In this document: positions 3,588-50,220 of the stretch, in pieces
How the letters are laid out: each line of letters starts with the position of its first letter
Numbering within the stretch: the stretch's first letter is position 1
IMG/VR virus record: IMGVR_UViG_3300019768_000006
Coordinates: 1-50,345 of that record
Direction: 5' to 3' (one strand)
DNA from: a virus
Taxonomy: Duplodnaviria; Caudoviricetes
Length of the DNA: 50,345 bases
Notes under the pieces: generated by a model
What the model was told of the DNA's origin: nothing
Databases searched by the model: none
What the model saw: the letters and a program-made list of their open reading frames with translations, nothing else
Made by a program: the position numbers and the translations under genes

Positions 3588-3833
3588 TTATTTATTAAGC
3601 ATTTCTTGGAAAGCTTTTATAACATTGCTTTTTATATATTTTTCAATATATTGTTCTAATACATAGTATCCATGATTATCTTCACAATTACCACTACAAT
3701 CATGAAGTCCACATATTGCATTATAAAATCTTATACCATAAATTTTATCACCAGTTTCAATAATTTTACCATATTCTCCAGCTAAATTATGAGGTTCTTT
3801 TATAATTACTCTATCTCCTATTTTTAGGTCCAT
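3588..3833 (-). CDS. small KOW/SH3-like protein, C-terminal-motif family
   Basis: N-term LKIGDRV; C-term SNVIKAFQEML. Confidence 0.75.
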   Translation of the reverse strand: MDLKIGDRVIIKEPHNLAGEYGKIIETGDKIYGIRFYNAICGLHDCSGNCEDNHGYYVLEQYIEKYIKSNVIKAFQEMLNK

Positions 3834-3834
3834 A

Positions 3835-4041
3835 TTAGTTCTCCAATAGTTTTATGAAAGTTTGTATAATAGAATTGTAATTACCGAATTTATACTCGCT
3901 ATATCTTGCAATTTTATTTGTATCATCAAATTTAATTTTAACTAAAAAATTGTTAATATATCCAATAACTATTCCAGTTCTATTATATGAATCAGACCAT
4001 TCAATAGTTCCAATTACCTTATCACCTTTTTTAAATTTCAT
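3835..4041 (-). CDS. small KOW/SH3-like protein, C-terminal-motif family
   Basis: MKFKKGDKV; C-term NSIIQTFIKLL; GGAGG RBS. Confidence 0.8.
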   Translation of the reverse strand: MKFKKGDKVIGTIEWSDSYNRTGIVIGYINNFLVKIKFDDTNKIARYSEYKFGNYNSIIQTFIKLLEN

Positions 4042-4062
4042 AGTGTACCTCCATATGTAATC

Positions 4063-4097
4063 GAGGACTTAATTTCTAGCCAAGTCCTCAGAGAGCC
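4063..4097 (-). ncRNA. structured RNA motif, copy 1 (hairpin/pseudoknot)
   Basis: CGGCU-CUCU-GAGGACUU-GGCUAGAAAUU-AAGUCCUC; second copy at 4862-4896 has a different stem but the same loop. Confidence 0.6.
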
Positions 4098-4116
4098 GAA
4101 AGGAGGTATATTTATG

Positions 4117-4365
4117 TTAATTACAAAGTTGTCTAAATTTGTTGAGTATTTTATTTTCTTTAACTAAATTAAATCTTTCTTCATATATATTATATTTATT
4201 AGTATCTTGGTTTTCTAATCTTTTTACTGTTGGGTGTTGCGTTGTACCATTATTAAGGTAACTAGTCCAAAAACCTACTACTTCAAATTTATCTCCAGGT
4301 TTAAAATCGCCTTTTTTACAGTTTATTTCAACTATATCTCCGATTATAAATTTACATTTCTTCAT
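4117..4365 (-). CDS. small KOW/SH3-like protein, C-terminal-motif family
   Basis: KFIIGDIV; C-term NKILNKFRQL. Confidence 0.8.
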   Translation of the reverse strand: MKKCKFIIGDIVEINCKKGDFKPGDKFEVVGFWTSYLNNGTTQHPTVKRLENQDTNKYNIYEERFNLVKENKILNKFRQLCN

Positions 4366-4390
4366 GAGTCCTCCGAATAATCTTATGAGT

Positions 4391-4420
4391 TGAGCAGTTT
4401 CTTTGCTTGCTCAGGCGCAA
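4391..4420 (-). ncRNA. predicted H-type pseudoknot
   Basis: UUGC-GCC-UGAGCA-A-GCAA-AGAAAC-UGCUCA. Confidence 0.5.
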
Positions 4421-4557: not shown

Positions 4558-4634
4558 TGGCTACGGAGGTGAGATTTGAACTCACAACAACTGACTTCAA
4601 AGGCCAGTGCTCCACACTTTTTAGCTACTCCGCA
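4558..4634 (-). tRNA. tRNA-Gln(UUG)
   Basis: Acceptor UGCGGAG/CUCCGUA, anticodon arm CUGGC-CUUUGAA-GUCAG, T-arm GUGAG-UUCAAAU-CUCAC, encoded GCCA. Confidence 0.9.
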
Positions 4635-4640
4635 ATATGT

Positions 4641-4682
4641 AACAACCTTTTTTAATTATGACAGAAAGGCTGCCTAAACTGC
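4641..4682 (-). ncRNA. predicted H-type pseudoknot
   Basis: GCAG-UUUA-GGCAGCCUUU-CUGU-CAUAAUUAAA-AAAGGUUGUU. Confidence 0.5.
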
Positions 4683-4687
4683 GCTCC

Positions 4688-4774
4688 TGGCACAGGCCCT
4701 GAGACTCGAACTCAGATTGGTTCTAGAGACCACGGTTTTGGAGACCGCTGCATTTCCATTTATGCTAGACCTAT
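4688..4774 (-). tRNA. tRNA-Trp(CCA) with unusually long variable region
   Basis: AUAGGUC/GGCCUGU acceptor, D-arm GCAU-AAAUGGAA-AUGC, GCGGU-CUCCAAA-ACCGU, 16-nt variable region, CUGAG-UUCGAGU-CUCAG, GCCA. Confidence 0.88.
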
Positions 4775-4780
4775 ATACGT

Positions 4781-4852
4781 AGGCAAGTGGAGGATTCGAA
4801 CCCCCGTAAGCATGTAGTCGACATACACGATTAACTCACCGTTATTCTTGCC
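4781..4852 (-). ncRNA. tRNA-like RNA or degenerate tRNA (nominal UCG anticodon)
   Basis: GGCAAG/CUUGCC acceptor, T-arm GGGGG-UUCGAAU-CCUCC, stem GUGUA-UGUCGAC-UACAU lacking U33; no encoded CCA. Confidence 0.6.
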
Positions 4853-4861
4853 ATATCAATT

Positions 4862-4896
4862 GTGGTTAATTTCTAGCCAACCACCGCTGAAAGCCG
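4862..4896 (-). ncRNA. structured RNA motif, copy 2
   Basis: CGGCU-UUCAGCG-GUGGUU-GGCUAGAAAUU-AACCAC. Confidence 0.6.
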
Positions 4897-4908
4897 ATGT
4901 TATTTGAC

Positions 4909-5032
4909 TGGTGAGATGTATAGGATTCGAACCTATATTGTCAGGTGTGCCGCCAATTACACCAAGCGGGCCGTAGCCCACTACTGGACTTGAACCAATT
5001 CCTCCCAACTGTTCCCATTAACTTAACATCTC
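4909..5032 (-). ncRNA. anticodon-less double tRNA-like RNA (two elbows, one CCA end)
   Basis: Two T-arms, two D-arms, two 7-bp acceptor stems (one closed by cUACGg, one ending ACCA), joined by a shared GUUGGG/CCUGAC stem. Confidence 0.8.
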
Positions 5033-5039
5033 ACGCCGC

Positions 5040-5096
5040 CCTAGTTTTGTTTACATGCTTTATAGTCTCAAGGAAACTAGGAAAAGTCCAGACTAT
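5040..5096 (-). ncRNA. predicted H-type pseudoknot
   Basis: AUAGUCU...AGACUAU (P1) interlocked with CCUAGUUU...AAACUAGG (P2). Confidence 0.6.
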
Positions 5097-5099
5097 CAT

Positions 5100-5176
5100 T
5101 GGTACTCGCCCAGGGTCTTGAACCCCGTACCTCTCGGATATAAGCCGAGTGCTCTAACCAGATGAGCTAGACGAGC
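5100..5176 (-). tRNA. tRNA-Ile(UAU)
   Basis: GCUCGUC/GGCGAGU, GCUC-AUCUGGUUA-GAGC, CUCGG-CUUAUAU-CCGAG, CGGGG-UUCAAGA-CCCUG, ACCA. Confidence 0.92.
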
Positions 5177-6580: not shown

Positions 6581-7393
6581 TTAATACACCAAACTTCCTG
6601 GTTCGTCCCAGAGTCTGTAGAGATGACAGTCTGGTCTTAGAATAAGCTTCTCTCCCATACAGTTCTCATCAATGAACACGGTCATGTCTTCGATAATTCT
6701 TATCGGATACTTACCGTCTATTGTTTTGCCTTCTGTAAAGAAATGAGCTTTAAACTCATTAAATTTCTCTTCAGACATTTTATGGTGTTTAATCCATGTA
6801 TTCTGAGGTGTTTCATCTTGTGAGATGAAAAGCTTTCTAAGGGTTACTTGGTCTGCTAATAAAGCATTTCTTAAATAATGAAAGAAATCTTTTACATCCC
6901 AAGAATCGAAAGCATCTGTTAAGTTTACTGAGATGCGTAAGTTCATGTTAAGAGATTTAACATTGTATGCAAACTTTGTCATATCATATCTTAGCTTCTC
7001 AGGAGAACCTTGATAATCAAAGTTTTGTTTAAATCTGAATGAACTGATACTCCAAGAGATCGTGTCAATACCAGCAGCTTTTAGAATCTTTAATTTGTCA
7101 AAGTCTAAAAGGACTCCGGTAGTTTGAATTTCAATCTTTTGGAAAGGGTTTTTAAGCTGATCATTAAGATATATAACATCATTAATGAACCTCATATGTT
7201 GTTGCGGTTCACTATCGCCAGTAAATACTAAGGTATCTATACCTTTGTCTCTGGCGTATTGCATCCGCTTGACATATTGGGATTTATAAGTATTGAATAT
7301 ATTCTTATATTGAGTTGCTTTCATTTGAGCAATACAGAATTTACAATTATTAATACAGACTAGGTCTGGTACAACTATTGATAGGCTTTTCAT
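6581..7393 (-). CDS. radical SAM protein
   Basis: CINNCKFC (CxxxCxxC), TGDSEP, IQTTG; AGGAGG RBS supports the start at MKSLSIV. Confidence 0.9.
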   Translation of the reverse strand: MKSLSIVVPDLVCINNCKFCIAQMKATQYKNIFNTYKSQYVKRMQYARDKGIDTLVFTGDSEPQQHMRFINDVIYLNDQLKNPFQKIEIQTTGVLLDFDKLKILKAAGIDTISWSISSFRFKQNFDYQGSPEKLRYDMTKFAYNVKSLNMNLRISVNLTDAFDSWDVKDFFHYLRNALLADQVTLRKLFISQDETPQNTWIKHHKMSEEKFNEFKAHFFTEGKTIDGKYPIRIIEDMTVFIDENCMGEKLILRPDCHLYRLWDEPGSLVY

Positions 7394-7498
7394 AATATCC
7401 CTCCTCAAGGATTACATTGTTGCAATGTAAATTAGAGTAAAAGCAACTCCAATTGTTATTCCTAATATAAATAGTACAAATGTGATCATTTAGACCTC

Positions 7499-8494: not shown

Positions 8495-8791
8495 TTATAA
8501 TTGTATTATATTCATAAACTTTCTTAATATTTTATTTTGATTTTTTTCACGGACTTCATAGTATTCTTCTAAAAAACAAATCATGTCACTTATAGTTCCA
8601 TATTTTATTCCTCTTGGCATCCAACTTTTTAAACTTTTAAAATATGGATAATAACAATATATTGTATTATCAACTTTAACAATCATTATATCATACCAAC
8701 CATTTTCATTTGGATCTTGTCCATCATAAATAGATGATCCATATCCTTTTGTTTTTACTTCATAGTTTGCCACAAAGTCCTTAGCGTCCAT
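8495..8791 (-). CDS. small protein, C-terminal-motif family
   Basis: GAGAGG RBS; C-term NKILRKFMNII. Confidence 0.75.
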   Translation of the reverse strand: MDAKDFVANYEVKTKGYGSSIYDGQDPNENGWYDIMIVKVDNTIYCYYPYFKSLKSWMPRGIKYGTISDMICFLEEYYEVREKNQNKILRKFMNIIQL

Positions 8792-8862: not shown

Positions 8863-10092
8863 TTATCCTAAGATTTTAACAACATCTTCTTCTTGCATTA
8901 CAGGAGCAAGCAATTCGATAAGATGTTCTTTTGTTGAGAATGCATGTGCCAATCCAATTAAATCTATTAATTCTGAATCAAAATTCTCAGATGCAAAGAT
9001 AGGATTGTTATCTGCATTTTGACCAAGAATTGCACAAAGCTTGTAGACAACATCTGTGATGTTTTCATGATAAGCATCTTGAGCATCAGCAAATGTTTTA
9101 GGGAAATTAATATCTCTATCAATATCCTCATACTCAGGTTCAATTTCAGAACCAAATTTTTGCATACCTTCAGCTTGTAACTGAGATATATATTGAGAAG
9201 CTTGCTCTTCTGTGAATTGCATTAGATTAAGTTCATCAAGCTCAGGATTACCACTTCTTACTAGAAGCTTATTAATTAAATCTCGTTGACCTTGAGAAGC
9301 TCTATCTTTATTCCATCTGTAGAATACAGCTTGGTTTTTAGAGATAAACTCTGTACATTGTTGTTTAACAAGCTTATCAAGTGAGAAACTATCAGCATAC
9401 TCATCAATTTCTTTTTGAGTTGCTACCATATCATCTTGAAGAGATTTCAATACAGCTTCAGCATCCTTCTGAGCCTTCTGTAATTTCTTTAATCTCTTAG
9501 TATCATTTTCCATGATACAATCTTGTTGAAGATTAAGAATCTGGTTTACTGCTGAGTTGTTAAGAGTGATCTCTTTCTCAAGAGAATCTTTCTTATCAAG
9601 AATCTCAGCTGGAACTTCGTACAACTCAGATGAATCAATGTCTGGACACATCATCATTTTTGAGATGAAAGCAAGTTGCTTTTCTGAAGGGATATGAGCA
9701 AAATGTTTTTCATAGTAATCATCCATTTTCTGAATAATTGAAGATGCTTGAGTTACACTTAATTTATCTAAGAACTCATCATCTGGTTCATCCATTCTGC
9801 ATTTAACATATCTGCCTTTGACAGCTTCCTTTTGACCATCAGTAGCTGGGAAGAAATCTTCAAGGGCTTGAGTTTTCTTGATAATTTCTGATAAGTTATT
9901 CTGAGATAATAACTCATAGTTTTTAATAGGATCAACATTTTTTCTCTTACATACTTTCAAATAATATGCTTGAGATTTTTCAGAAGCGACACCAGCTTTA
10001 CGAGGTGCACTGGTCTGAGAAGTTTTCTCAGCTTTGGGAGCGTTCTTTTGTAAATCCTTAATAATTTGATTGTAAGTGTTCAAAGTTTTCAT
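8863..10092 (-). CDS. protein with four short helical repeats and a coiled coil
   Basis: 409 aa; repeats ASEKSQ/ATDGQ/PSEKQ/ASQGQ, each followed by an LS..Q(AS)..I-like segment; AAGGAG RBS. Confidence 0.8.
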   Translation of the reverse strand: MKTLNTYNQIIKDLQKNAPKAEKTSQTSAPRKAGVASEKSQAYYLKVCKRKNVDPIKNYELLSQNNLSEIIKKTQALEDFFPATDGQKEAVKGRYVKCRMDEPDDEFLDKLSVTQASSIIQKMDDYYEKHFAHIPSEKQLAFISKMMMCPDIDSSELYEVPAEILDKKDSLEKEITLNNSAVNQILNLQQDCIMENDTKRLKKLQKAQKDAEAVLKSLQDDMVATQKEIDEYADSFSLDKLVKQQCTEFISKNQAVFYRWNKDRASQGQRDLINKLLVRSGNPELDELNLMQFTEEQASQYISQLQAEGMQKFGSEIEPEYEDIDRDINFPKTFADAQDAYHENITDVVYKLCAILGQNADNNPIFASENFDSELIDLIGLAHAFSTKEHLIELLAPVMQEEDVVKILG

Positions 10093-35325: not shown

Positions 35326-35556
35326 TTACACCTCCAATGATTTATTTAACATCTCATAGAATTTCGCAGATATTTTGTTGTATCCTCTAAGTCTATAGAT
35401 ATATATTTCATTTTCTTCATCATATTTTTCTATATAATTATAATCTCTCATATAGCTAGAGATAGCTTCAAAATAGTGTTCTTTTTTTATAAATAATGTT
35501 GGTGTTTTTCTTTTTGTTTCTCTTAGTATATCTCCTGCTAATTTCATTTCTAACAT
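35326..35556 (-). CDS. small protein, C-terminal-motif family
   Basis: GGAGG before MLEMKL; C-term NKISAKFYEML. Confidence 0.7.
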   Translation of the reverse strand: MLEMKLAGDILRETKRKTPTLFIKKEHYFEAISSYMRDYNYIEKYDEENEIYIYRLRGYNKISAKFYEMLNKSLEV

Positions 35557-35557
35557 G

Positions 35558-35791
35558 CTAAACCTCCAAGAGTTCTGAGAACTTTCTGAGGATTGATGAT
35601 TCATTATTTATAAATAACCAACAGTCTTCTCCATACAAAGTTCCTTCTTTAACAAACTTATATCTGCTTGTTCTAAAGAATTTTTTTAATGTGTTTAAAG
35701 ACCATACATTAGTTGTTACATAAATATTTGGTTCTTTATCGTTTGTATATTTAAAAAGTTGTTCTGCTCTCTTACATAATACTTTATTCAT
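35558..35791 (-). CDS. small protein, C-terminal-motif family
   Basis: AGGAG RBS; C-term SSILRKFSELL. Confidence 0.75.
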   Translation of the reverse strand: MNKVLCKRAEQLFKYTNDKEPNIYVTTNVWSLNTLKKFFRTSRYKFVKEGTLYGEDCWLFINNESSILRKFSELLEV

Positions 35792-36637: not shown

Positions 36638-36640
36638 AAG

Positions 36641-37832: not shown

Positions 37833-37838
37833 ACTATT

Positions 37839-39856: not shown

Positions 39857-40025
39857 ACATTTTGTTAACTAACATAGTATCTCTAAATTGTCTGAGTTGT
39901 TCTGTTAAATATGTTATCCACCAAAGTTCACTAGATATTACTCCAGATTCTTTTGCCTTCTCATACATATCATCGAACATTTCAATTTGTTCGTTTACTA
40001 TATCAATTAATGCATCTCTTTTCAT
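39831..40025 (-). CDS. hypothetical protein
   Basis: AAGGAG RBS. Confidence 0.65.
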   Translation of the reverse strand: MKRDALIDIVNEQIEMFDDMYEKAKESGVISSELWWITYLTEQLRQFRDTMLVNKMFEKDKENV

Positions 40026-40316
40026 TTAATGCTCCTTACATGTACATACCGCACAGTTACCGCAGCATTTTGAATCCTCTTTATATTCCCATTTTTCAAA
40101 TTCAAATACAGGAACGAAAATCCATTTTCCATCTTCTCTTTTTTGAACTACCCAGCCAGCTGGATGGTCTCTTTCTTGGACGTCTGTATCGATGTCTAAT
40201 TGACTCATATCATAATCCTTATAATTAACCATCTCAGTATAACTATATAATTCTTTTGTATATCCTATTTCAGATTTAGGGATACCTTCTATATCATATA
40301 CTGTTATATATTTCAT
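40026..40316 (-). CDS. hypothetical protein with Cys-rich C-terminus
   Basis: CCGNCAVCTC; GAGG RBS. Confidence 0.7.
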   Translation of the reverse strand: MKYITVYDIEGIPKSEIGYTKELYSYTEMVNYKDYDMSQLDIDTDVQERDHPAGWVVQKREDGKWIFVPVFEFEKWEYKEDSKCCGNCAVCTCKEH

Positions 40317-41299: not shown

Positions 41300-41728
41300 T
41301 TAATCACCGAATAAGTCAATAAACTTTTGTTTAATTGGGTTCATCACATATATATGATTTCCATTTATTTTATAAATATCTCCTACATATTTATGATAAC
41401 GTAATCTTTTATTGCCAAATGTCAATCCACAAGAGATAAGGCGAGATTGTTTTAGTTTGTTTTTAAATATTAAAACTGAGCCATCATACATCTCAAGAAT
41501 GTCTCCTGGATTTAAAGTAATACCAACAGGAAGACAATAATATGTGCCTACCGTTTCCCAGGAATATATTGAATCAATTTTAATAAGAAAATTATTATTA
41601 AATGAATATTCTTTTATTCCTTTGACTTTTCTTATACGCTCAAGATTATAACTAAAATATTCAACAATATCTCCACAATACTCTTTGTAGAACATTTTTT
41701 TTATTTTAAAAAATTCAGATTCTGTCAT
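41300..41728 (-). CDS. protein of the C-terminal-motif family
   Basis: LNPGDIL internal KOW-like segment; C-term NPIKQKFIDLF. Confidence 0.7.
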   Translation of the reverse strand: MTESEFFKIKKMFYKEYCGDIVEYFSYNLERIRKVKGIKEYSFNNNFLIKIDSIYSWETVGTYYCLPVGITLNPGDILEMYDGSVLIFKNKLKQSRLISCGLTFGNKRLRYHKYVGDIYKINGNHIYVMNPIKQKFIDLFGD

Positions 41729-41732
41729 TTCA

Positions 41733-44729
41733 TTACTCCAATTCAAGTTTCTTAACTTTATTAATTATTAGGCTAGTACCTGATTTGACTCCTTTGACTG
41801 CAACGAATTGATTAACAGAAAATACTTCACGCATTTTATCGGACCATGTACTTGAAAATACTAAGCCTTTAACACTACCATATTGAGATGTTAATGTTAT
41901 AAATGCCATAGTGTTACCGTTCTTATCTTTTCTTTCAGAAAGTTCAGTAACTTCTCCAGCAAGTATTACTGTTTCTCGTTCTTCAAATTTGTCAAACGAT
42001 TTATAATGAAACTTTTCTAAAGGGTGTTTTGTTAAATACATTCCAAGGCTTTCTTTTTCGAAGTCAGCTTTATGAATATCACTATATTCTGGAAAATCAG
42101 TCTTAGGTATTTCTAAGATTTCTTCTGCAGAATTAATGAGATTAAATCTATTGGAATCAATATAATCAAAACAACCAGCCTTAATAAGATTCATTATTAC
42201 ATTAGTTTTCAAATCAGTTCTTTGAGTATTCTCAATAAGACTTCTAAGGTCTTTGATTGGCCTATGCAAAAGAATTGATTTAATTGCAGCATCACCTACT
42301 TGTTCTATAGATGTAATTCTAAAATATATTGTATCGCCTTTAGCAACAAATTTTTCAGTAGAATTATTTATATCAGGTGGTGCTATTTTTATTTTTTGTT
42401 TTTTAACTTCAGCTATTAAATCAGCCAGCTTATCTGAGTCGTCTCCATGTTTTGTCATTAGACTTGCATAGAAGTGAGCGGGATAGTGGTATTTTAGCCA
42501 AGCTGATTGCAAACTCAAGATAGCGTATGAGACAGCGTGACTTTTATTAAATGAATAACCATCACTTGCAGCTTGTACTATTTCAGACCAAATCCTTGTC
42601 AATAGCGGCTTTTTAAATCCTCTACTGATACTATCACTGATAAATTTATTCTGAAGCTCTGTGTCAGCACATAAATCTTTGTTTTTACGTACATGTTTGT
42701 CAGCATATGCTATAGACCACCCAGCAAAGACTTTACAGTCCATTTCATACTGTTCTTGGTATGCTATAATTCCAAAGGTCTCTTCTAGGTATGGTTTACG
42801 GAGTGGGTGTAAGTCATATGCTTTCCCATTGCGTCTTGCAATGTATTCGTCCCAATCTCCTACACCTGGTCTTAACAATGCATTGATTGCTATAAGGTCT
42901 TTAAAGTTTTTAGGTTTTTGCTCAAGTAACATATGGGATTGACCAGCTAACTGGAAAACCCCACTTGCATTACCTTGAGATAACATCTCATAAACTAAAG
43001 GGTCATTATAGTTTATTTTGTGTAAATCAATATCTACATCCATGTCAAGTTTAATTGACTTAACTGCATCTTCATTAACAGTTAAAGACGTCAATCCTAG
43101 CAAGTCAAATTTCACATGCCCAAGCCATTCAAGCATTTTCTTATCAAGATATGCTATGAGTCGATTACGGTTTGCTGAAACTGTTCTTACCGGAATTAGT
43201 TCGCTGATGTTTGGATATATCAATACTCCACCAGCATGTACACCAACATGACTGATGACATTATAAAGTCTTTTTATAACTTCGTATTCTTCAGGATTTT
43301 TAATACAATGTTTTTTAAAGGCTTTTGATTTTCTATATGCATCATCTAAGGTATCGCCTAATTCGTCAATTGGTTTTGTTAGAGATGTGATATAGTAGCT
43401 TTGATAACCAAATGCAGATAACACTTTTCGTATTACAGCTTTGGTTGTTAGATAAATATAGTTCCCTACTAGGGCTACATTTTCAATCCCGTAAGTTTCA
43501 ATTAGGTAATCAATAACCCTTTCTCTATCAGAGAAATCTACGTCGAAGTCTGGGATACGACCATTAGAAAGGAATCTTTCAAAGAGTAGATTATATTCCT
43601 CTGGGTTTACCTCGGTTATTCCTAATGTGAAGGCTGTCTTAGAACCCGCTCCTGAGCCTCTCCCATCTCCGACGAGTATTCCATTGGACCTTGCCCAATT
43701 TACATAATCTTGTACTATGAGAAAGTAGTCTGCGAATCCCTCTTTACATATAACGTCTAACTCGGTGGCAACGTCATCTTTAAATTCTTTAGAGTGTAGG
43801 CCATCGCCTAGGATTCTCTCTTTATAGCTTTTAGTTACCATTCTACGTAAAGTAGGTTGACCATCTTCACCTTTTGGAAGGGTGTGATAAGATGGAAAAT
43901 AAGTGCCTTGTTCAATTGTTGCGTTGCAACGGTCTGCAATCTCAAGGGTATTCTGAAGTGCTTTATGGGCGATCTCTTCGTCAAACTTGATGTAGTCTAA
44001 CATTTCATCATAAGTTTTAAAATGATAATCGTCACAATCGAATCTGAACCGATTTTCATCAGTCATTTTCTTTTTTGTTTGAATTGCTAGAAGAACTTCG
44101 TGAGCATATGCATCTTCCTTTTCAACGTAATGGCAATCATTGGTGAGTATCATCTCAGCACCTATCTTATAGGCAATTTGAATCAACCCATTATTCACAA
44201 TGGTTTGCTGTTCGCTTAATGAGGACTGCAATTCAATATAGAAACGGTCTCCAAAAATTTCTTGAAACTCTACAGCCATTTCAAGTGCTTCTTCTTCTTG
44301 ACCATTCTTTATGAGATAGCCAATCGGATTAGCTACACACGCAGAAGTTATTATTATACCTTCATTGTGCCGCTTTAGTCTTTTCATATCAATACAAGGT
44401 TTACGGCTTGTGAAGCCGAGGTCTGAGAAAGCAAACCTTTGAAGTTTTAATATGTTAGACCAACCTGTGTTATTCATTGCAAGTGCTACGAGGTGTCCTA
44501 CCCCGTATTCTGTTTTTATATAAAATTCTGTACCCAAGATGGGTTTGATTGGAGTTCCTTTACAAAGTTTAAACAACTCATAAGCACCACTAGATGAACC
44601 GTGATCTGTTATTGCTAGTGCTGGCATTCCGAGTTTAATCGCTTTGTTGATATAATCTTGGATACTCCCAAGACCATCTAGTTCAGAATAGTATGAATGT
44701 GTGTGTGTATGAACAAATGTTTTATTCAT
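41733..44729 (-). CDS. dnaE: DNA polymerase III alpha subunit (DnaE type)
   Basis: PHP domain HTHTHSYYSELDG, AITDHG; GRGSGAGS; PDFDVDF; KFDLLGL; YSFNKSHA; C-terminal OB fold; start at MNKTF after AGGAG. Confidence 0.97.
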   Translation of the reverse strand: MNKTFVHTHTHSYYSELDGLGSIQDYINKAIKLGMPALAITDHGSSSGAYELFKLCKGTPIKPILGTEFYIKTEYGVGHLVALAMNNTGWSNILKLQRFAFSDLGFTSRKPCIDMKRLKRHNEGIIITSACVANPIGYLIKNGQEEEALEMAVEFQEIFGDRFYIELQSSLSEQQTIVNNGLIQIAYKIGAEMILTNDCHYVEKEDAYAHEVLLAIQTKKKMTDENRFRFDCDDYHFKTYDEMLDYIKFDEEIAHKALQNTLEIADRCNATIEQGTYFPSYHTLPKGEDGQPTLRRMVTKSYKERILGDGLHSKEFKDDVATELDVICKEGFADYFLIVQDYVNWARSNGILVGDGRGSGAGSKTAFTLGITEVNPEEYNLLFERFLSNGRIPDFDVDFSDRERVIDYLIETYGIENVALVGNYIYLTTKAVIRKVLSAFGYQSYYITSLTKPIDELGDTLDDAYRKSKAFKKHCIKNPEEYEVIKRLYNVISHVGVHAGGVLIYPNISELIPVRTVSANRNRLIAYLDKKMLEWLGHVKFDLLGLTSLTVNEDAVKSIKLDMDVDIDLHKINYNDPLVYEMLSQGNASGVFQLAGQSHMLLEQKPKNFKDLIAINALLRPGVGDWDEYIARRNGKAYDLHPLRKPYLEETFGIIAYQEQYEMDCKVFAGWSIAYADKHVRKNKDLCADTELQNKFISDSISRGFKKPLLTRIWSEIVQAASDGYSFNKSHAVSYAILSLQSAWLKYHYPAHFYASLMTKHGDDSDKLADLIAEVKKQKIKIAPPDINNSTEKFVAKGDTIYFRITSIEQVGDAAIKSILLHRPIKDLRSLIENTQRTDLKTNVIMNLIKAGCFDYIDSNRFNLINSAEEILEIPKTDFPEYSDIHKADFEKESLGMYLTKHPLEKFHYKSFDKFEERETVILAGEVTELSERKDKNGNTMAFITLTSQYGSVKGLVFSSTWSDKMREVFSVNQFVAVKGVKSGTSLIINKVKKLELE

Positions 44730-44737
44730 TGTTTCTC

Positions 44738-44998
44738 CTAAAATAGTTTGGAGAATTTTTCTAAGATTGGCGATAAGTTTGCAAAGTCTATTTTTCCAAC
44801 TTCTACATTCCATACATGGCCATGTTTACCTTTTGCATTTCCATTACCAGAATGACCATTTATATTATTATCAAATTCTATTCTTACATTAGTAGTACCG
44901 TTTAATTGAATTACTGTGCCAATTTGATTAATTATTTTTTTATTTTTATCTTGTTCTTGCAAACATATAACTCTGTCGCCTACTTTAAATTTATTCAT
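44738..44998 (-). CDS. small KOW/SH3-like protein, C-terminal-motif family
   Basis: MNKFKVGDRV; C-term SPILEKFSKLF; internal FDNNINGH..G...GHVW resembles 3588..3833. Confidence 0.8.
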   Translation of the reverse strand: MNKFKVGDRVICLQEQDKNKKIINQIGTVIQLNGTTNVRIEFDNNINGHSGNGNAKGKHGHVWNVEVGKIDFANLSPILEKFSKLF

Positions 44999-45521
44999 TG
45001 TAAACATCCTTTAAAATATCTATAAATTCTCCATTGTCTTCTTGAGGTGTTCCAGAAGTAATCTTATATTCAGTATGATGGAAAACATCTCTAAACTTAC
45101 TACGGTCTTCTGCAAGTCTGTAATAAACTTGTTCTTGAGTATCTCCTCTCATTAGCATTCTATAAGCCCTTTCTTCTTCTGAACAGTCTATAAATATAGC
45201 CTTCATGTATTTGCCATATTTTCTTTTAGCTTTCCAAGCACCTTCAACATCCATTATTGAGATGTAGTTAGTGTTCTTATAGTCTGGAAAGCTTGTTCCA
45301 TATAAACTACCATACAACACATTTACATTTTCTATTGTATGATCTTTTTGTTTTTCTAAAAACTCTAGCGGGCTCAGGAAGGTATACACTGAATCGCTCT
45401 GGTCTTCTCTGGGTTCTCTAGTTGTGTACCATAGAGGTAAGTTGAAATCAAGTTTTCTTATTGCAAAATTCATAAGTCTTGATTTACCACTTCCACTAGC
45501 TCCAACTAAAATGATAATCAT
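44991..45521 (-). CDS. gmk: guanylate kinase-like protein
   Basis: GASGSGKS P-loop, YTTREPR, YGSLYGT, RMLMRGD. Confidence 0.88.
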   Translation of the reverse strand: MIIILVGASGSGKSRLMNFAIRKLDFNLPLWYTTREPREDQSDSVYTFLSPLEFLEKQKDHTIENVNVLYGSLYGTSFPDYKNTNYISIMDVEGAWKAKRKYGKYMKAIFIDCSEEERAYRMLMRGDTQEQVYYRLAEDRSKFRDVFHHTEYKITSGTPQEDNGEFIDILKDVYNE

Positions 45522-45536
45522 ATATTTCTCCGGGAG

Positions 45537-45776
45537 CTATTCGAATAATTCTTTGAATTTTTTAGAGATTGGGCTAGAATTTATTAATTCTATTGCTTCT
45601 TTCGAAACCCACCATGTAAAACCAGGATGCATTTTACCAGAAATAACTTTTATAAGATATTCTTGTTCTCCACCTATATTTAATTCAATGATTTCTGCTG
45701 TACAACCATAAACTTTTCTACTATCAAGAACATTGTTTTTAACTACTATTACTTCATCACCTTTTTTAAATTTCAT
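45537..45776 (-). CDS. small KOW/SH3-like protein, C-terminal-motif family
   Basis: MKFKKGDEV; C-term SPISKKFKELF. Confidence 0.8.
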   Translation of the reverse strand: MKFKKGDEVIVVKNNVLDSRKVYGCTAEIIELNIGGEQEYLIKVISGKMHPGFTWWVSKEAIELINSSPISKKFKELFE

Positions 45777-45778
45777 AA

Positions 45779-46744
45779 TTACCTCATTTTCTTAGCGTTC
45801 TCAAAGAGTTCTCTGAAAAGTTCTTTGTCAATTGTATATGGGTCGTGACCATCTGGAATATCTATAAAATATACATCGCAAGTATATTGGAGTTTTTCGA
45901 AAGACTTTAAAGCTCCCTTTCTTCCAGCTGTATCTCCATCATATGCAATATATATATCTACTCCAAGGTTCTCCAAAAATTCTTTTTGTTTATCTGTTAC
46001 TTTTGAGCCGAATGTGCAAACACATGGATAACCTTCTTCTATCAATGCAAGGCAATCCATTATACCTTCTACGATTATCAAAAATTCAATATCTTGTGTG
46101 CAAATTTTGTCGTAATTATATAATGCATTTCCTACTGATAGTCCTTTAGGTTGACTTATCCATTTAGGTATTGCGTTTCTTCTAGTGGCTCTGAGTTGTA
46201 CTCCGATTAGTTTATTTAAAAAATATATTGGAAATCCAATTCTATTATGAGTTGTTCCATTTGATAATATAAATTCTTTGGCATAGAATATTTCATATTC
46301 TTCTAAGAGCTCTTTGCTAAGTCCTCTATATTCATTTACTTTAAATATTTCTTGAACATCTAAATTATATTCTTTAAATTCTATTTCTTCAGTTAATGAT
46401 TCAATCCATTCTTTCGCATCCTCATAATGGCTTATTTCTTCTTTAGTAAATTCGATTCCATCAATTGTAAAGCCAGAAATATCAGCTATTAAATCACATG
46501 CTTGTAAAAAACTAATGCCCTTGAGTTTTTGGACTAGTTCAATTATATCTCCACCAATCTTGCACTTACTGTGACAATACCACATTCCAGTTTCTGAGTT
46601 GATGTCGAAAGATGTTTTGCTAGTTCCTCCGTGTATTGGACAAGCTGAACGGTATGAATCACCGTTGTGTGTATAATCTATTTTGAGGTATTTCAAGACC
46701 TTCTCAAGATTTGCGTGGTCTTTTACATATTTTATATTTTTCAT
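45779..46744 (-). CDS. dnaG: DNA primase (CHC2 Zn finger + TOPRIM)
   Basis: CPIH...WYCHSKC; VEGIMD; YDGDTAGRKG; DP. Confidence 0.93.
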   Translation of the reverse strand: MKNIKYVKDHANLEKVLKYLKIDYTHNGDSYRSACPIHGGTSKTSFDINSETGMWYCHSKCKIGGDIIELVQKLKGISFLQACDLIADISGFTIDGIEFTKEEISHYEDAKEWIESLTEEIEFKEYNLDVQEIFKVNEYRGLSKELLEEYEIFYAKEFILSNGTTHNRIGFPIYFLNKLIGVQLRATRRNAIPKWISQPKGLSVGNALYNYDKICTQDIEFLIIVEGIMDCLALIEEGYPCVCTFGSKVTDKQKEFLENLGVDIYIAYDGDTAGRKGALKSFEKLQYTCDVYFIDIPDGHDPYTIDKELFRELFENAKKMR

Positions 46745-46998
46745 AGTAGTTCTCTGAAACGTTTAAAAATTGGATTTTCATTATACAATACAATTTCATT
46801 TTCATAGAATGTAAGTACGTCTTTAAATCCTTTTTTAACATTTTTTAATTCTATTGTATATTTTTTTTCATTTTCAACTATAATCACTTTATGAGGGCCT
46901 GGACCATAATTTTCTAGAATATCATTTATAAATGAAATACTATTATAATCCTCTTCTAAGTCTTCACGAATTTTAATTACATCTCCAACTTTAAACAT
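46741..46998 (-). CDS. small KOW/SH3-like protein, C-terminal-motif family
   Basis: MFKVGDVI; C-term NPIFKRFRELL; GAGGT RBS. Confidence 0.8.
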   Translation of the reverse strand: MFKVGDVIKIREDLEEDYNSISFINDILENYGPGPHKVIIVENEKKYTIELKNVKKGFKDVLTFYENEIVLYNENPIFKRFRELL

Positions 46999-47006
46999 TT
47001 CTTACC

Positions 47007-48368
47007 TCAATCTACTTCTACTTGTCTTAAGACATTTTTATAAAAGCGTATTGGTATTGGTTTAACATCACTTTCACCATTCCTCTGAAAGGCTATATAT
47101 AAATATTGATTACCATCTTCAATTCCATCTTTAGCTATATCTTCTTCATCCTTATTATATAAGAATACAAGTTTAGTAGCCAATTGCAAGATTCTGTCAG
47201 AACCTGAGATGTTACCAGCATTCTTTCTTGAGTTGTCAATACCACTTCTATTTTCTTGAACAGCACTAAAGATAGGTATTTTAAGTATTCCAGCGAGGTC
47301 TTTGAGGCCTCCAGCAAGGAATCCTAACATCTGCCATTCTTTAACTGTTTTAAGTGTAGCCATTTCAGATGCTGGAAATTTTAAGTAGTCAAAGAATAAT
47401 GCTACTATTCCATGTTGCATTTGAAATTGTCTAGTAATTGCTGTTACTTTTTCAATTGAAAATCCTGGCATATAGATATGATATAAATTACCATTAGCCA
47501 TCATCTCTTTAGCCTTCTCTAGTCTTGCTATTTTTTCTTTAGCAGAACCATTTTCTGTATCTAATACATACATTCCAGAGACTATCTCAGAGTGAGGAAT
47601 ACCAGTTATTATAGATAAGATTCTATCTTCACTTTCACGAGATGTCATCTCAGTATCTATATAAAGTATTGGTAATTGATCTATTATACCTAGTTTTACT
47701 GCCCAGTTTGTTAGTGTAACAGATTTACCTGTCTTACTACGAGCTGCTACAAATATTAAATCTCCAGGTTGTCCTCCGTTGGTTATCTTATCATACTTTG
47801 GAAAACCCACTTCGAGACCTGGGATAGTATTTGGATTCTCAGCTCTTTCTCTTAATACTTCTTCTGTCTTACTACCTATTTTATACAGCTCAGATGATAA
47901 TGCTTTTCCAACATTTATATCTGAGAGTTTTGATTCAACACTCCCAACTATTTCAGAGGGGTTGAGAATGTTAGTTTTATCGTCTTGCATATCCTTTGTG
48001 GTTTCTTCGCATATGCGAATGATTTCACGTCTGGTATATGCTTGCTTGATTTTTTCTATAAATATCTTTAGATTAGAAGTTTTTACTCTAACTTTGTTTA
48101 ATCCAACTAGATATTTAAGCCCTCCAACTTCATCGACGAGGTCTTTAACTGCTTGATCAGGTAACACCTCATAGATTGCTGTTGGTGTTGGTTCTATTTT
48201 TCTTCCATATAAATACATACAAGCCATGTAAATATATTTATTTGCTTCTACTCCAAAGTCATTGTAAGTTAAACCTTCTGACTCACAATTGACTATTTGG
48301 TCTGGGTACTGAAAACATATTCCTAAGATTTGTCTTTCAGAACCAACAGCTAAAATGTTTGTGCTGAT
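47007..48368 (-). CDS. dnaB: replicative DnaB-like helicase (probable ATC/ATT start)
   Basis: AARSKTGKS, IDTEM, FDYL, SAVQENR; the frame extends 47-48 codons upstream of ATG 48227 with a DnaB-like N-terminus (SERQILG...LTYNDF...NKYIY). Confidence 0.9.
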   Translation of the reverse strand: MSTNILAVGSERQILGICFQYPDQIVNCESEGLTYNDFGVEANKYIYMACMYLYGRKIEPTPTAIYEVLPDQAVKDLVDEVGGLKYLVGLNKVRVKTSNLKIFIEKIKQAYTRREIIRICEETTKDMQDDKTNILNPSEIVGSVESKLSDINVGKALSSELYKIGSKTEEVLRERAENPNTIPGLEVGFPKYDKITNGGQPGDLIFVAARSKTGKSVTLTNWAVKLGIIDQLPILYIDTEMTSRESEDRILSIITGIPHSEIVSGMYVLDTENGSAKEKIARLEKAKEMMANGNLYHIYMPGFSIEKVTAITRQFQMQHGIVALFFDYLKFPASEMATLKTVKEWQMLGFLAGGLKDLAGILKIPIFSAVQENRSGIDNSRKNAGNISGSDRILQLATKLVFLYNKDEEDIAKDGIEDGNQYLYIAFQRNGESDVKPIPIRFYKNVLRQVEVD

Positions 48369-48372
48369 AATA

Positions 48373-48651
48373 TCACTCCGCCATAAGGCTTAAAAATTTG
48401 CTAAGTATTTTGTTTCCAGGTCTAACTATATAAAATTCACGTTTAAATCTTATAAACCAATCATTGTAATCAATATATTTATCGTTTTTACCACAAGGTA
48501 TAATTAAGTTTTTATCTATATAAGAATCAATTATCCAAGTGTTTTCATCTACTTGTTTTTTTATTAGGAAAAATTTATTAGAGTCCTTGGCATATAACAC
48601 AAGGCCTTCGTGTAATGTTTTTGGTTGTTTTAAATTACTATAATCAAACAT
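48373..48651 (-). CDS. small protein, C-terminal-motif family
   Basis: AGGAG RBS; C-term NKILSKFLSLM. Confidence 0.75.
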   Translation of the reverse strand: MFDYSNLKQPKTLHEGLVLYAKDSNKFFLIKKQVDENTWIIDSYIDKNLIIPCGKNDKYIDYNDWFIRFKREFYIVRPGNKILSKFLSLMAE

Positions 48652-48883
48652 TTTGTTCTCCTAATATCTCTAAAAACTTGTTAAGTATTTTTGATTTACA
48701 ACATAGTTTCATTCTCTTGCAGAATTGATTATAATTTAAATTTCCACCTTTATATAGATTATCAATATTTTCACCAAATCTGAAACATACTGAAGATTTA
48801 CTAAGACTAGTTACTATTTGATAATCTTTATCTAATGTATCAAAATAAATTTGTCCAACTTTTATATCATCTTTATTAAGCAT
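48644..48883 (-). CDS. small protein, C-terminal-motif family
   Basis: GAGGAG RBS before MLNKDDIKVGQIY; C-term SKILNKFLEIL. Confidence 0.75.
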   Translation of the reverse strand: MLNKDDIKVGQIYFDTLDKDYQIVTSLSKSSVCFRFGENIDNLYKGGNLNYNQFCKRMKLCCKSKILNKFLEILGEQNV

Positions 48884-49262
48884 TCCAATCAAACTCCTCT
48901 CGTTTACCAAAGTTTTTTAATTTCTTTGAGTTGTCCGAAGCCCTTGGCAAAGTGCCAATTTCCTTAGACTCCTCTTCAGCCTTCTTAACTTTTTCTTTAA
49001 GTTTTTCTTTGCGATAAGGCTTGATTGTATCCTCAATAATTGCAGAAATATATCCGAAACTATATATTCCTCCGGAAGGTTTATGTTTAGAACAATAGTC
49101 CATCGTATATATTATCTCATCTTTTGAGTATTTTGTCAATAGTCTCTTTGCCATTATTATATACTTTGAGATATTATTATCTATTTTTGAGTTCATTACA
49201 TGCTCATAAAAGTATAATATAATTTCTTTTGAGTCTGTTGATTTTGATAAACTATCGTTCAT
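48876..49262 (-). CDS. putative replication initiator/loader-type protein (DnaD-like)
   Basis: AKRLL.KYS.DEI...MDY...SFGYI helical pattern; located between SSB and helicase. Confidence 0.5.
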   Translation of the reverse strand: MNDSLSKSTDSKEIILYFYEHVMNSKIDNNISKYIIMAKRLLTKYSKDEIIYTMDYCSKHKPSGGIYSFGYISAIIEDTIKPYRKEKLKEKVKKAEEESKEIGTLPRASDNSKKLKNFGKREEFDWNA

Positions 49263-49266
49263 AACA

Positions 49267-49977
49267 TTACTCCTCGAAGCTTACATCTTCTTCTGATTCT
49301 TCAGAATCTTCTGGGTTAAAAATTTCTTTTAAAGTCATACCAGATAACAACTTCTTCAAGTTCTCAGAAGATAATGACAAGAATAAATCATTAATATCTA
49401 ATTCCTTTACTTTCTCAAGAATTTCTTCTGGTACTTCTTTTTGTTGAGATTTAGGTGCTTTCTTAAATGTATACGCAGTATCATTTTTACCAGTACCTTC
49501 TCTCTTAACTCTAATTACAAATTGACTAGGGTCATAAACACTATGGTCAACTTCTTTAAGTGCCTCTTCTAAAGTAATATCTTTTTCTTCCATAATTTCT
49601 TCAGCAGCCTCTTCTCTGAGGTCTCCCAAGAAACTAGTTAAGTTCTTTGCAAAGGTCTTGCGTTGGTCTAGTATTTCAAGTTGATTAGTATTGTGATTAT
49701 AAACCAACATACCAAATTTCTTTGCTGAGCTGTGATCAGTTTTCTGATCGTTCTTTTTAGCTGATTTAATGATTGCGCATACTGGACAACCATTTCCAGG
49801 GCATGTTACTGTTAGTCTACCGTTTTTAGCAAGATAGTGTGTCCATCTTGGCAATGCTGCAGCTAATACAGTAATATACGTATTACCTTCTTCAAACTTT
49901 GTGAAAGGTAATCTTTCATTTTTACCATCAGATGATTCATTATCAAATTCATCTTCAAACATATCTAATAAGTTCAT
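49267..49977 (-). CDS. single-stranded DNA-binding protein (gp32-like)
   Basis: H...C....CPVC Zn site, REGTGKNDTAY, acidic tail ending SFEE; next to the helicase. Confidence 0.75.
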   Translation of the reverse strand: MNLLDMFEDEFDNESSDGKNERLPFTKFEEGNTYITVLAAALPRWTHYLAKNGRLTVTCPGNGCPVCAIIKSAKKNDQKTDHSSAKKFGMLVYNHNTNQLEILDQRKTFAKNLTSFLGDLREEAAEEIMEEKDITLEEALKEVDHSVYDPSQFVIRVKREGTGKNDTAYTFKKAPKSQQKEVPEEILEKVKELDINDLFLSLSSENLKKLLSGMTLKEIFNPEDSEESEEDVSFEE

Positions 49978-49992
49978 TTAATTCTCCTCCGA

Positions 49993-50220
49993 CTAGCGGA
50001 ATAGTTCTAGAAATTTCTCTGTTATTTTGGAGGTTTTTGTAGGTTTTACATTTTTAAAATATTTTGCACAAGATACTCCGCTTAATGATATAAACCATCC
50101 AGCACCATGATAGTCATGCGGGCCTTTATAAATTAATATTTGACCTTTACATTTACCTTCTATGCTTAATACTTTATCACCTTTTTGTAAATTCATTAGT
50201 CCCTCCAAATTCTCTGACAA
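49993..50220 (-). CDS. small KOW/SH3-like protein, C-terminal-motif family
   Basis: LQKGDKV; C-term SKITEKFLELF (true start may be MNLQKGD). Confidence 0.75.
   Translation of the reverse strand: MSENLEGLMNLQKGDKVLSIEGKCKGQILIYKGPHDYHGAGWFISLSGVSCAKYFKNVKPTKTSKITEKFLELFR

What the first reader, a model, noticed from the sequence alone, without database searches (positions are those of the whole stretch)
3588..50220. Thirteen dispersed small proteins share a C-terminal [NS]-x-I-x-x-[KR]-F-x-x-[LMI] tag
Seen C-termini: SNVIKAFQEML (3588), NSIIQTFIKLL (3835), NKILNKFRQL (4117), NKILRKFMNII (8495), NKISAKFYEML (35326), SSILRKFSELL (35558), NPIKQKFIDLF (41300), SPILEKFSKLF (44738), SPISKKFKELF (45537), NPIFKRFRELL (46741), NKILSKFLSLM (48373), SKILNKFLEIL (48644), SKITEKFLELF (49993); the first two are looser matches. 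The motif always lies within a few residues of the stop. Codons differ between copies, so conservation is at the protein level. About 7-8 members also begin with a KOW/SH3-like (F/L)KxGDxV; the bodies are otherwise divergent. Inference: an amphipathic helix used as a common address label (docking to one hub, capsid loading, membrane targeting, oligomerisation or a degron) on a variable set of effector domains - possibly an undescribed modular effector system.
Basis: partly seen in the sequence, partly recalled or inferred. Interest (0 to 1): 0.86.

Follow-up and report, generated by a model that had tools for sequence, protein, structure and literature searches.

The report
Phage protein family sharing one tail
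An uncultured 50-kb phage gives about one gene in six to small early proteins, mostly tiny beta-barrels, that all end in the same short helix, which probably plugs them into one still unknown partner.

Summary
The strict pattern [NS]-x-I-x-x-[KR]-F-x-x-[LMI] occurs 12 times in the six-frame translation. Eleven of these lie 1-7 residues before the stop of real minus-strand early genes. That is 11 of 83 ORFs, against 0.02 expected from shuffles. A twelfth member (3835) is supported by a tail profile. The thirteenth (3588) has a decayed tail on a clearly paralogous body. Conservation is at the protein level.

The bodies are not a free assortment of effector domains. Five match an external SH3-like small-barrel family, three more match weakly, and one looks barrel-like by structure. 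Only two or three look different. The barrel-start motif GDxV occurs only in tagged genes. Most external homologues lack the tail; 4 of 142 carry a similar helix.

Best reading: a lineage-specific expansion of an SH3-like family whose C-terminal, N-capped amphipathic helix is a shared interaction element. Most likely it docks on one common partner. That partner is not identified, and a purely structural helix or a membrane anchor is not excluded. No close relative of the phage was found, so conservation across related phages could not be tested.

The parts
3588..3833 (-). g3588, 81 aa. SH3-like body with a degenerate tail SNVIKAFQEML (nt 3597-3629) followed by NK.
   Evidence: The body matches the external SH3 profile at E 3.5e-16. 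It is a paralogue of g44738 by blastp, E 5.3e-5, and matches phrog_22041 at E 8.3e-7. The tail profile does not find its tail.
3835..4041 (-). g3835, 68 aa. SH3-like body with loose tail NSIIQTFIKLL (nt 3844-3876) followed by EN.
   Evidence: Tail profile 13.8 bits, E 1.8e-4. Body matches the external SH3 profile at E 2.4e-7.
4117..4365 (-). g4117, 82 aa. Tail NKILNKFRQLC (nt 4123-4155) followed by N.
   Evidence: Strict motif. GDxV start. Weak match to the external SH3 profile, E 0.075.
8495..8791 (-). g8495, 98 aa. Body of no detectable family. Tail NKILRKFMNII (nt 8504-8536) followed by QL.
   Evidence: Strict motif. No Pfam or PHROG hit. hhalign against the SH3 alignment finds nothing. The Atlas model is poor.
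35326..35556 (-). g35326, 76 aa from the ATG behind a GGAGG site. Tail NKISAKFYEML (nt 35347-35379) followed by NKSLEV.
   Evidence: Strict motif. Starts MLEMKLAGDIL. No profile match to the SH3 family.
35558..35791 (-). g35558, 77 aa. Body of no detectable family. Tail SSILRKFSELL (nt 35567-35599) followed by EV.
   Evidence: Strict motif. hhalign aligns only the tail.
41300..41728 (-). g41300, 142 aa, directly after the DnaE-type polymerase gene. It has an extra N-terminal part, then a barrel-like part, then the tail NPIKQKFIDLF (nt 41309-41341) followed by GD.
   Evidence: Strict motif. Residues 63-124 of the Atlas model resemble YajC/KOW/DUF2158 small barrels, but only at TM 0.3-0.4.
44738..44998 (-). 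g44738, 86 aa. SH3-like body. Tail SPILEKFSKLF (nt 44741-44773) ends directly at the stop.
   Evidence: Matches the external SH3 profile at E 2e-31 and phrog_22041 at E 4.3e-8. The AF2 model shows a barrel plus a helix at residues 77-85.
45537..45776 (-). g45537, 79 aa. SH3-like body, directly after the primase gene. Tail SPISKKFKELF (nt 45543-45575) followed by E.
   Evidence: Strict motif. Matches the external SH3 profile at E 1.3e-9.
46741..46998 (-). g46741, 85 aa. SH3-like body, directly after the DnaB-type helicase gene. Tail NPIFKRFRELL (nt 46744-46776) ends directly at the stop.
   Evidence: Strict motif. Matches the external SH3 profile at E 0.0037.
48373..48651 (-). g48373, 92 aa. 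Tail NKILSKFLSLM (nt 48382-48414) followed by AE.
   Evidence: Strict motif. The single-sequence AF2 model (pLDDT 57) shows a beta-rich body and a C-terminal helix at residues 81-91. No profile match to the SH3 family.
48644..48883 (-). g48644, 79 aa. Tail SKILNKFLEIL (nt 48662-48694) followed by GEQNV. The extra residues overlap the ribosome-binding site and start of g48373.
   Evidence: Strict motif. Weak match to the external SH3 profile, E 0.2.
49993..50196 (-). g49993, 67 aa. First gene after a terminator-like hairpin. Tail SKITEKFLELF (nt 49999-50031) followed by R.
   Evidence: Strict motif. Terminator-like site at 50254-50235. Weak match to the external SH3 profile, E 0.063.

Best explanation
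The 13 genes are a lineage-specific expansion of one family of small early phage proteins. Each has an SH3-like beta-barrel of about 60-70 residues, followed by a short C-terminal helix.

The helix is N-capped by Asn or Ser, often has Pro or Lys next, and carries a hydrophobic stripe of Ile3, Phe7, Leu10 and Leu/Phe11. The copies sit in three adjacent sets (4117/3835/3588, 48644/48373, 35558/35326) and six single slots. Four of the single slots lie directly behind the helicase, primase, nucleotide kinase and DnaE polymerase genes.

The barrels have diverged almost beyond recognition, while the helix has been held constant. I infer that the helix is the family's common interaction surface. Most likely it docks every member on one shared partner, either a phage or host protein or the members themselves. 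The diversified barrels would then supply different binding specificities.

Shown: the motif is real, sits at the C-terminus, is selected at the protein level and lies on early-strand genes. Most bodies are SH3-like. The barrel family exists widely without the helix.

Inferred: the docking function and the existence of a single partner. The partner is not identified.
For: - Enrichment and position.
- Protein-level selection.
- The tail is more conserved than the body among the eight alignable paralogues (mean pairwise identity 0.40 against 0.21).
- Bodies are SH3-like: the external-family profile hits 5 members at E 0.004 or better and 3 more at E 0.06-0.2. PHROG 22041 is hit. The AF2 model is a barrel plus terminal helix. 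Foldseek gives weak KOW, PWWP, PsaE and Pif1-SH3 matches and small uncharacterised phage SH3-like proteins.
- The barrel does not need the helix: 138 of 142 external representatives lack it.
- Four external representatives carry a like helix directly behind the barrel: P0058, P0069, P0121 and P0137. In P0137 another 57 residues follow.
- The modelled helix has lower confidence than the barrel: about 60-69 against 83-88 in g44738, and about 49-56 against 63-70 in g48373.
- At least two carriers (8495, 35558) show no likeness to the barrel family.
- Gene order places the members between replication genes. The same core order, without tagged genes, occurs in Geobacillus phage GBK1 and Bacillus phage Jayan.
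Against: - No partner was found and no binding was shown.
- Every conserved position can also be explained by the needs of a stable short amphipathic helix: the N-cap, the hydrophobic stripe and a Lys6-Glu9 pair. This fits a helix that simply packs on its own barrel.
- Every GDxV-type protein of this phage carries the tail. Common descent alone explains much of the sharing.
- The two or three 'different' bodies were judged by sequence only and may be extremely diverged barrels.
- The phage has no close relative in the collections searched.
Confidence: 0.42

Rival explanations
1. The helix is an integral part of the fold. It would be a barrel plus a C-terminal helix that packs on the barrel, as in chromo-domain and Sso7d/Sac7d-type proteins (recalled from knowledge, not tested). 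The 13 genes would then simply be diverged paralogues, perhaps nucleic-acid binders, and the 'tag' would be their best conserved structural element with no addressing role.
For: - The topology of barrel then terminal helix appears in both models.
- Foldseek finds PWWP-ssDNA and KOW-type barrels.
- The conserved positions are those that stabilise a short amphipathic helix.
- The tail and the GDxV start are strictly coupled in this genome.
- In P0137 the like helix is internal.
Against: - 138 of 142 external family members have no such helix.
- The helix is modelled with lower confidence than the barrel.
- The helix is about twice as conserved as the body.
- It also occurs on bodies with no detectable barrel signature.
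Confidence: 0.25
2. The tail is a membrane-targeting amphipathic helix of the MinD/FtsA kind (recalled from knowledge). It would bring the small proteins to the inner face of the host membrane.
For: The tail is at the extreme C-terminus and is 10-11 residues long. Its mean helical hydrophobic moment is 0.63, against 0.49 for the best window in the tails of other genes. Its net charge is 0 to +3.
Against: - The fixed identities (Phe in 13 of 13, Ile in 12 of 13, Lys/Arg in 11 of 13) go beyond what lipid binding needs.
- Only four or five hydrophobic residues on a monomeric protein of about 80 residues would bind weakly.
- Two tails have net charge 0.
Confidence: 0.15
3. The tail is a timing or sorting signal of another kind. 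It could be a C-terminal degron that clears early proteins, or a scaffold-like peptide that loads them into procapsids.
For: In 11 of 13 members only 0-2 residues follow the 11-mer, so the free C-terminus lies at a nearly fixed distance.
Against: - No ssrA-like ending: 0 of 13.
- Two members carry 5-6 extra residues dictated by the next gene's ribosome-binding site.
- All members lie in the early and replication regions, on the strand opposite the head genes.
Confidence: 0.08
4. The repeat is a nucleotide-level element, or a chance product of AT-rich gene ends.
For: The genome has about 33% G+C. The last residues of several tails overlap the next gene's ribosome-binding site.
Against: - Third codon positions are the least conserved, and synonymous codons are mixed.
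- 0 of 119 non-gene ORF tails carry the motif, and shuffles give 0.02.
- Nothing comparable is found in 1.0 Mb of other viral DNA.
Confidence: 0.01

Closest known systems
Small SH3-like / KOW-like barrel proteins of phages (PHROG 22041; Pfam SH3_12, SH3_15 and DUF4314-type barrels)
   Same: The bodies of at least five members match this family by profile. The AF2 model is a five-stranded barrel. The family is common in viral metagenomes, as single domains and as tandem repeats.
   Different: The Pfam matches stay below the gathering scores. 138 of 142 external representatives have no C-terminal helix. No function is known for the phage members.
Chromo-domain / Sso7d-Sac7d type fold: SH3-like barrel capped by a C-terminal helix (recalled, not searched)
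   Same: The same order of elements, a barrel followed by one amphipathic terminal helix.
   Different: No sequence or significant fold match was obtained. The Foldseek hits are KOW, PWWP and PsaE barrels at E of about 0.007 or worse. Whether the helix packs on the barrel could not be seen.
Virus multigene families with a variable body and a conserved C-terminal docking element, such as poxvirus ankyrin proteins with a C-terminal F-box-like PRANC domain that binds Skp1 (recalled)
   Same: Many paralogues in one genome, diversified bodies, and a constant C-terminal piece.
   Different: A eukaryotic virus, a domain of about 40 residues, and a known hub. Here the element is an 11-residue helix in a phage and no hub is known.
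C-terminal peptides that bind sliding clamps: the bacterial QL[SD]LF motif, the PIP box, and the tails of T4 gp43, gp33 and gp55 that bind gp45 (recalled)
   Same: Short hydrophobic peptides at or near the C-terminus, shared by several proteins of one replication or transcription system. The phage has a DnaE-type polymerase and no recognisable clamp gene.
   Different: Neither motif is present in any of the 13 tails. The spacing and the helical N-cap differ.
MinD / FtsA membrane-targeting sequences (recalled)
   Same: An amphipathic, mostly basic helix of about ten residues at the extreme C-terminus.
   Different: Those sequences conserve amphipathicity rather than fixed residues. Here five positions are nearly invariant.
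Large families of small early proteins sharing a short motif in jumbo phages
   Same: A sizeable share of a phage's genes encode small diverged paralogues that keep only a short helix motif. Their function is unknown.
   Different: A different motif (Phe-Gln), acidic proteins, jumbo E. coli/Klebsiella-type phages, and mostly one long array. These are unchecked AI notes, which I did not test.

Membership tests
SH3-like small-barrel family (PHROG 22041 / external family found) | Significant profile match of the body | tested here: met
   Profile built from 21 external single-domain representatives: g44738 2e-31, g3588 3.5e-16, g45537 1.3e-9, g3835 2.4e-7, g46741 0.0037. Weak: g49993 0.063, g4117 0.075, g48644 0.2. 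No match for g8495, g35326, g35558, g41300 or g48373. phrog_22041 matches g44738 at 4.3e-8 and g3588 at 8.3e-7.
SH3-like small-barrel family | Five-stranded barrel fold | tested here: inconclusive
   AF2 model of g44738: strands 9-12, 25-33, 37-42, 62-66 and 70-72, mean pLDDT 72. Foldseek best E 6.7e-3 and TM 0.5-0.6 to KOW, PWWP and PsaE barrels, with no match at E 0.001 or better. g48373 models at pLDDT 57 only.
Pfam SH3_12 (PF18129) | Score at or above the gathering threshold (26.2 bits) | tested here: not met
   g44738 scores 19.1 bits, E 0.0013. The external homologue P0058 scores 25.7 bits.
Bacterial sliding-clamp binding motif | QL[SD]LF, QLxLxL or a loose Q-h-x-h-F form in the tail | tested here: not met
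   0 of 13 tails match.
PIP box | Q-x-x-[ILM]-x-x-[FY]-[FY] | tested here: not met
   0 of 13 tails match.
MinD/FtsA-type membrane-targeting sequence | Amphipathic, net basic helix at the C-terminus | tested here: met
   Mean hydrophobic moment 0.63. Net charge 0 to +3. 0-6 residues follow the 11-mer.
MinD/FtsA-type membrane-targeting sequence | Binding to membranes | not testable with these tools
   Needs localisation or liposome assays.
Chromo / Sso7d-like barrel with packed C-terminal helix | The terminal helix packs on the barrel | tested here: inconclusive
   The order of elements fits. The tools return no coordinates or contacts. Helix confidence is lower than barrel confidence.
ssrA-like or SSB-like C-terminal tails | Ending in [LV]AA, or in acidic residues followed by x-P-F | tested here: not met
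   0 of 13 for each.

The most novel reading that the evidence does not exclude
The phage encodes a hub-and-adaptor system. One 11-residue C-terminal helix plugs thirteen diversified mini-barrels, some on non-barrel bodies, into a single hub such as the phage replisome or a host machine. In this way the phage recruits or blocks many different targets through one port. Such a modular recruitment system is not described for phage early proteins.
Probability: 0.28. Interest if true: 0.8.

Novelty: new variant of a known kind. Interest (0 to 1): 0.5.

Why it matters
Early phage genes of unknown function are the largest blind spot in phage genomes. Here 13 of about 83 ORFs of a 50-kb genome form one family that offers a clear experimental handle: an 11-residue helix with five nearly fixed positions. 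If the helix docks on one partner, a single pull-down with the peptide would name that partner. It would also assign a working context to a sixth of the genome at once. If the helix is only structural, the case still documents an unusually large expansion of a mini-barrel family in a mid-sized phage, interleaved gene by gene with its replication enzymes.

Tried and rejected
- **Homodimer test.** Two copies of g44738 with alignment A1 gave 'no answer'. This is no evidence either way.
- **Relatives of the phage.** None was found:
  - blastn of the head region against the phage collection: no match.
  - DnaE as a query in viral, genome and metagenome contigs: no relative.
  - g44738, P0069 and P0137 by tblastn against cultured phages: no match.
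  - P0137, P0121 and P0069 in viral contigs: none.
- **Word-indexed protein searches.** g44738 and the 13-member alignment A3 returned only the window's own proteins.
- **Cluster look-ups.** These gave alternative start calls and one variant with a single body substitution, which is not informative.
- **Alignments as queries.** A1 and A2 were too variable for the search for related loci.
- **DNA pattern for N-K-I-[LF]-x-K-F-x-E-[LF] in IMG/VR.** 36 matches, 0 of them at the end of an ORF of 30 codons or more by my criterion. The pattern is narrow and matches none of the window's own 13 tails, so this says little.
- **Pattern for K-F-K-V-G-D-R-V.** 115 loci, 107 ORFs carrying it, none with the tail. 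I used these loci as a background control.
- **hhalign of five 'odd' bodies against the SH3 alignment.** Nothing was found. A single sequence against a profile has limited reach.
- **Candidate hubs.** The large ORFans g8863 and g2269 gave no Pfam, PHROG or PDB match. No clamp-binding motif was seen in the DnaE region examined.
- **Sequencing runs.** No RNA holder was listed. Contigs of four DNA runs laid on 34700-50345 were essentially identical to the window. The few differences all lie in the polymerase gene, so population variation gives no test of constraint on the tails.
- **Literature.** Four full-text searches listed no paper on such a family. I saw only the search listings. Supplementary files were not consulted.
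- **Possible further members.** I considered g410 (ends ...NVQAIKEAFQLL) and g48876 (...SKKLKNFGKREEFDWNA) as decayed members. The tail profile does not support them.
Full report
**What the window is.** The window is the whole record held for this genome: one contig of 50,345 bases with about 33% G+C.
- Late and structural genes lie on the plus strand, from about 13.1 to 34.6 kb. They include a terminase-sized ORF, portal-sized and head-morphogenesis-sized ORFs, a Mu gpT-like major head protein and an 1810-residue ORF.
- Everything else is on the minus strand. This includes a replication module with a DnaB-type helicase, a DnaG-type primase, a guanylate-kinase-like protein, a DnaE-type polymerase III alpha, a PD-(D/E)XK nuclease, a metallophosphoesterase and an SSB-like protein.
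- The nearest cultured relatives are distant. The polymerase is 36% identical to that of Geobacillus phage GBK1. The head protein is 49% identical to that of Bacillus phage PK1 and 47% to a Firmicutes MAG.
- GBK1 and Bacillus phage Jayan share the core order of helicase, primase, DnaE and nuclease.

- All 13 quoted C-termini are present.
- The strict pattern [NS].I..[KR]F..[LMI] occurs 12 times in the six-frame translation. Eleven matches lie in minus-strand ORFs of 80-154 codons, 1-7 residues before the stop. The twelfth lies in a 44-codon ORF antisense to late genes.
- In my greedy set of 83 ORFs, 11 carry the pattern in the last 22 residues and none carries it elsewhere. Shuffles give 0.02, and 0 of 119 non-gene ORFs carry it.
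- A profile of the 11 tails separates the members cleanly: 22.6-27.2 bits for the members (circular), then g3835 at 13.8 bits (E 1.8e-4), then 3.6 bits.
- The tail of g3588 is too decayed for the profile. Its body, however, is a clear paralogue of g44738.
- The profile finds nothing of 5 bits or more in three Bacillus/Geobacillus phage genomes. Its best score in 8443 ORFs from 115 other viral loci is 10.0 bits.
- Third codon positions are the least conserved, and synonymous codons are mixed. Selection therefore acts on the protein.
- An ATG start preceded by a GGAG/GAGG-like site exists for most members. It is weak for g44738 and partial for g45537 and g46741.

**Anatomy of the tail.** Column counts over the 13 tails:

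| Position | Residues |
|---|---|
| 1 | Asn 7, Ser 6 |
| 2 | Lys 6, Pro 4 |
| 3 | Ile 12, Val 1 |
| 6 | Lys/Arg 11 |
| 7 | Phe 13 |
| 9 | Glu 7 |
| 10 | Leu/Ile/Met 13 |
| 11 | Leu 6, Phe 4 |

- This is the signature of an N-capped amphipathic helix with a hydrophobic stripe at positions i, i+4, i+7 and i+8.
- The mean hydrophobic moment is 0.63 and the net charge is 0 to +3.
- Between 0 and 2 residues follow the 11-mer in 11 members. The two longer ends (NKSLEV, GEQNV) overlap the ribosome-binding site of the next gene.
- AF2 predicts a helix at this place in both members modelled.

**What the bodies are.**
- A profile of eight alignable members (A1) found 184 proteins at E 1e-3 or better among 1.84 billion representatives. 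These are single domains and tandem repeats of an SH3-like barrel with a KFKVGDRV-type start.
- A profile built only from 21 external single-domain hits finds g44738, g3588, g45537, g3835 and g46741 at E 0.004 or better. It finds g49993, g4117 and g48644 weakly, and does not find the other five.
- hhalign finds nothing for those five.
- The Atlas model of g41300 resembles small barrels over residues 63-124, at low TM.
- g48373 models as a beta body plus helix at pLDDT 57.
- The AF2 model of g44738 is a barrel plus terminal helix, with pLDDT 72. Fold matches to KOW, PWWP, PsaE and Pif1-SH3 barrels and to small uncharacterised phage proteins are weak.
- A GDxV-type start occurs by regex in 7 of the 13 tagged ORFs and in 0 of 47 untagged minus-strand ORFs. 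By eye it is also present in g49993, g48644 and, internally, in g41300.
- So most carriers are one family. Only g8495 and g35558, and perhaps g35326, may have other bodies.

**Is the helix part of the family everywhere?** No.
- Of 142 external representatives, 138 end without it.
- Three end in a close variant ([ST]-[KR]-I-L-x-K-L-L-E).
- One (P0137) has SKITDKFTLAF directly behind the barrel, followed by 57 more residues.
- None of 107 viral ORFs with a KFKVGDRV start carries the tail.
- The helix is therefore an addition found in a small branch of the family, and it is greatly expanded in this phage.

**Arrangement.** In transcription order, the members sit at 8495; 4117, 3835 and 3588 (adjacent); 49993; 48644 and 48373 (adjacent); 46741 (after the helicase); 45537 (after the primase); 44738 (after the kinase); 41300 (after the polymerase); and 35558 and 35326 (adjacent). 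Adjacent sets suggest duplication. The low pairwise similarity shows that the copies are old.

**Mechanism.**
- I favour a shared interaction helix that docks the members on one common partner, while the barrels diversify (0.42).
- Four points argue for this: the helix is about twice as conserved as the body, it is dispensable for the barrel elsewhere, it is modelled less confidently than the barrel, and it is present on at least two bodies without a barrel signature.
- The main rival (0.25) is a purely structural helix, as in chromo-domain or Sso7d-type barrels (recalled). All the conserved positions can be explained by helix stability and packing.
- A membrane-targeting helix (0.15) fits the amphipathicity but not the fixed residues.
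- A degron or a capsid-loading peptide (0.08) fits the near-fixed distance to the C-terminus, but fits poorly with early-gene placement.
- A DNA-level or chance origin is excluded.
- Clamp-binding motifs and PIP boxes are absent.

**Limits.**
- No partner was identified.
- The single complex job gave no verdict (see Tried and rejected).
- No close relative of the phage was found in any collection, so the test of conservation in related phages could not be made.
- Four literature searches listed nothing relevant (listings only).
- Two earlier notes of this scan describe large short-motif families in jumbo phages. These are analogies that I did not test.

Noticed in passing
window 4558-5176 (-): Three tRNA genes: Gln(TTG), Trp(CCA) and Ile(TAT). 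Ile(TAT) reads ATA, the codon used for the invariant Ile in 6 of the 13 tails.
   Followed up: no
window 36076-36540 (+), promoter-like site 35958-35986: A GIY-YIG domain ORF (Pfam E 3.9e-7) lies alone on the plus strand inside the minus-strand early region. It sits behind a perfect TTGACA-17-TATAAT site with an upstream TG. It looks like a free-standing homing endonuclease gene.
   Followed up: partly
window 6581-7408 (-) and 1305-2276 (-): A radical-SAM domain protein of 275 residues with no PHROG match, and an M28/M42-like peptidase (phrog_4191, E 1.5e-36). Their roles in the phage are unknown.
   Followed up: no
window 49267-49977 (-): An SSB-like protein (weak PHROG matches) that ends in an acidic tail with one Phe (...EESEEDVSFEE). 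This is the kind of tail that recruits partners in SSB and T7 gp2.5 (recalled).
   Followed up: no
window 410-901 (-) and 48876-49262 (-): Two further ORFs end in sequences that faintly resemble the tail...NVQAIKEAFQLL and ...SKKLKNFGKREEFDWNA. The tail profile does not support them. They may be decayed copies or chance.
   Followed up: partly
external proteins P0001, P0037, P0058 and others (alignment A2): The external barrel family conserves a Cys in the first strand, a GH, and a GHCW stretch. This could be a metal site. Several window members have lost these residues.
   Followed up: no
L009, L021, L023, L031, L037, L039: Six viral contigs carry a small ORF ending ...NKIL[SF]KFHELI[TA]KF..ELNGG[VL], with 12 residues after the 10-mer. 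This is a different small family with a similar helix near its end.
   Followed up: no
window 34700-50345: Contigs of four public DNA runs labelled microbial mat metagenome cover this stretch in pieces that are identical or nearly so. The few differences all lie within 43197-43789, in the polymerase gene. Eight runs hold at least part of it.
   Followed up: partly
window 8863-10092 (-) and 2269-3567 (-): Two large early ORFs (409 and 432 residues) have no match in Pfam, PHROGs or PDB sequences. They are the largest unexplained proteins and are possible partners for the tagged family.
   Followed up: partly
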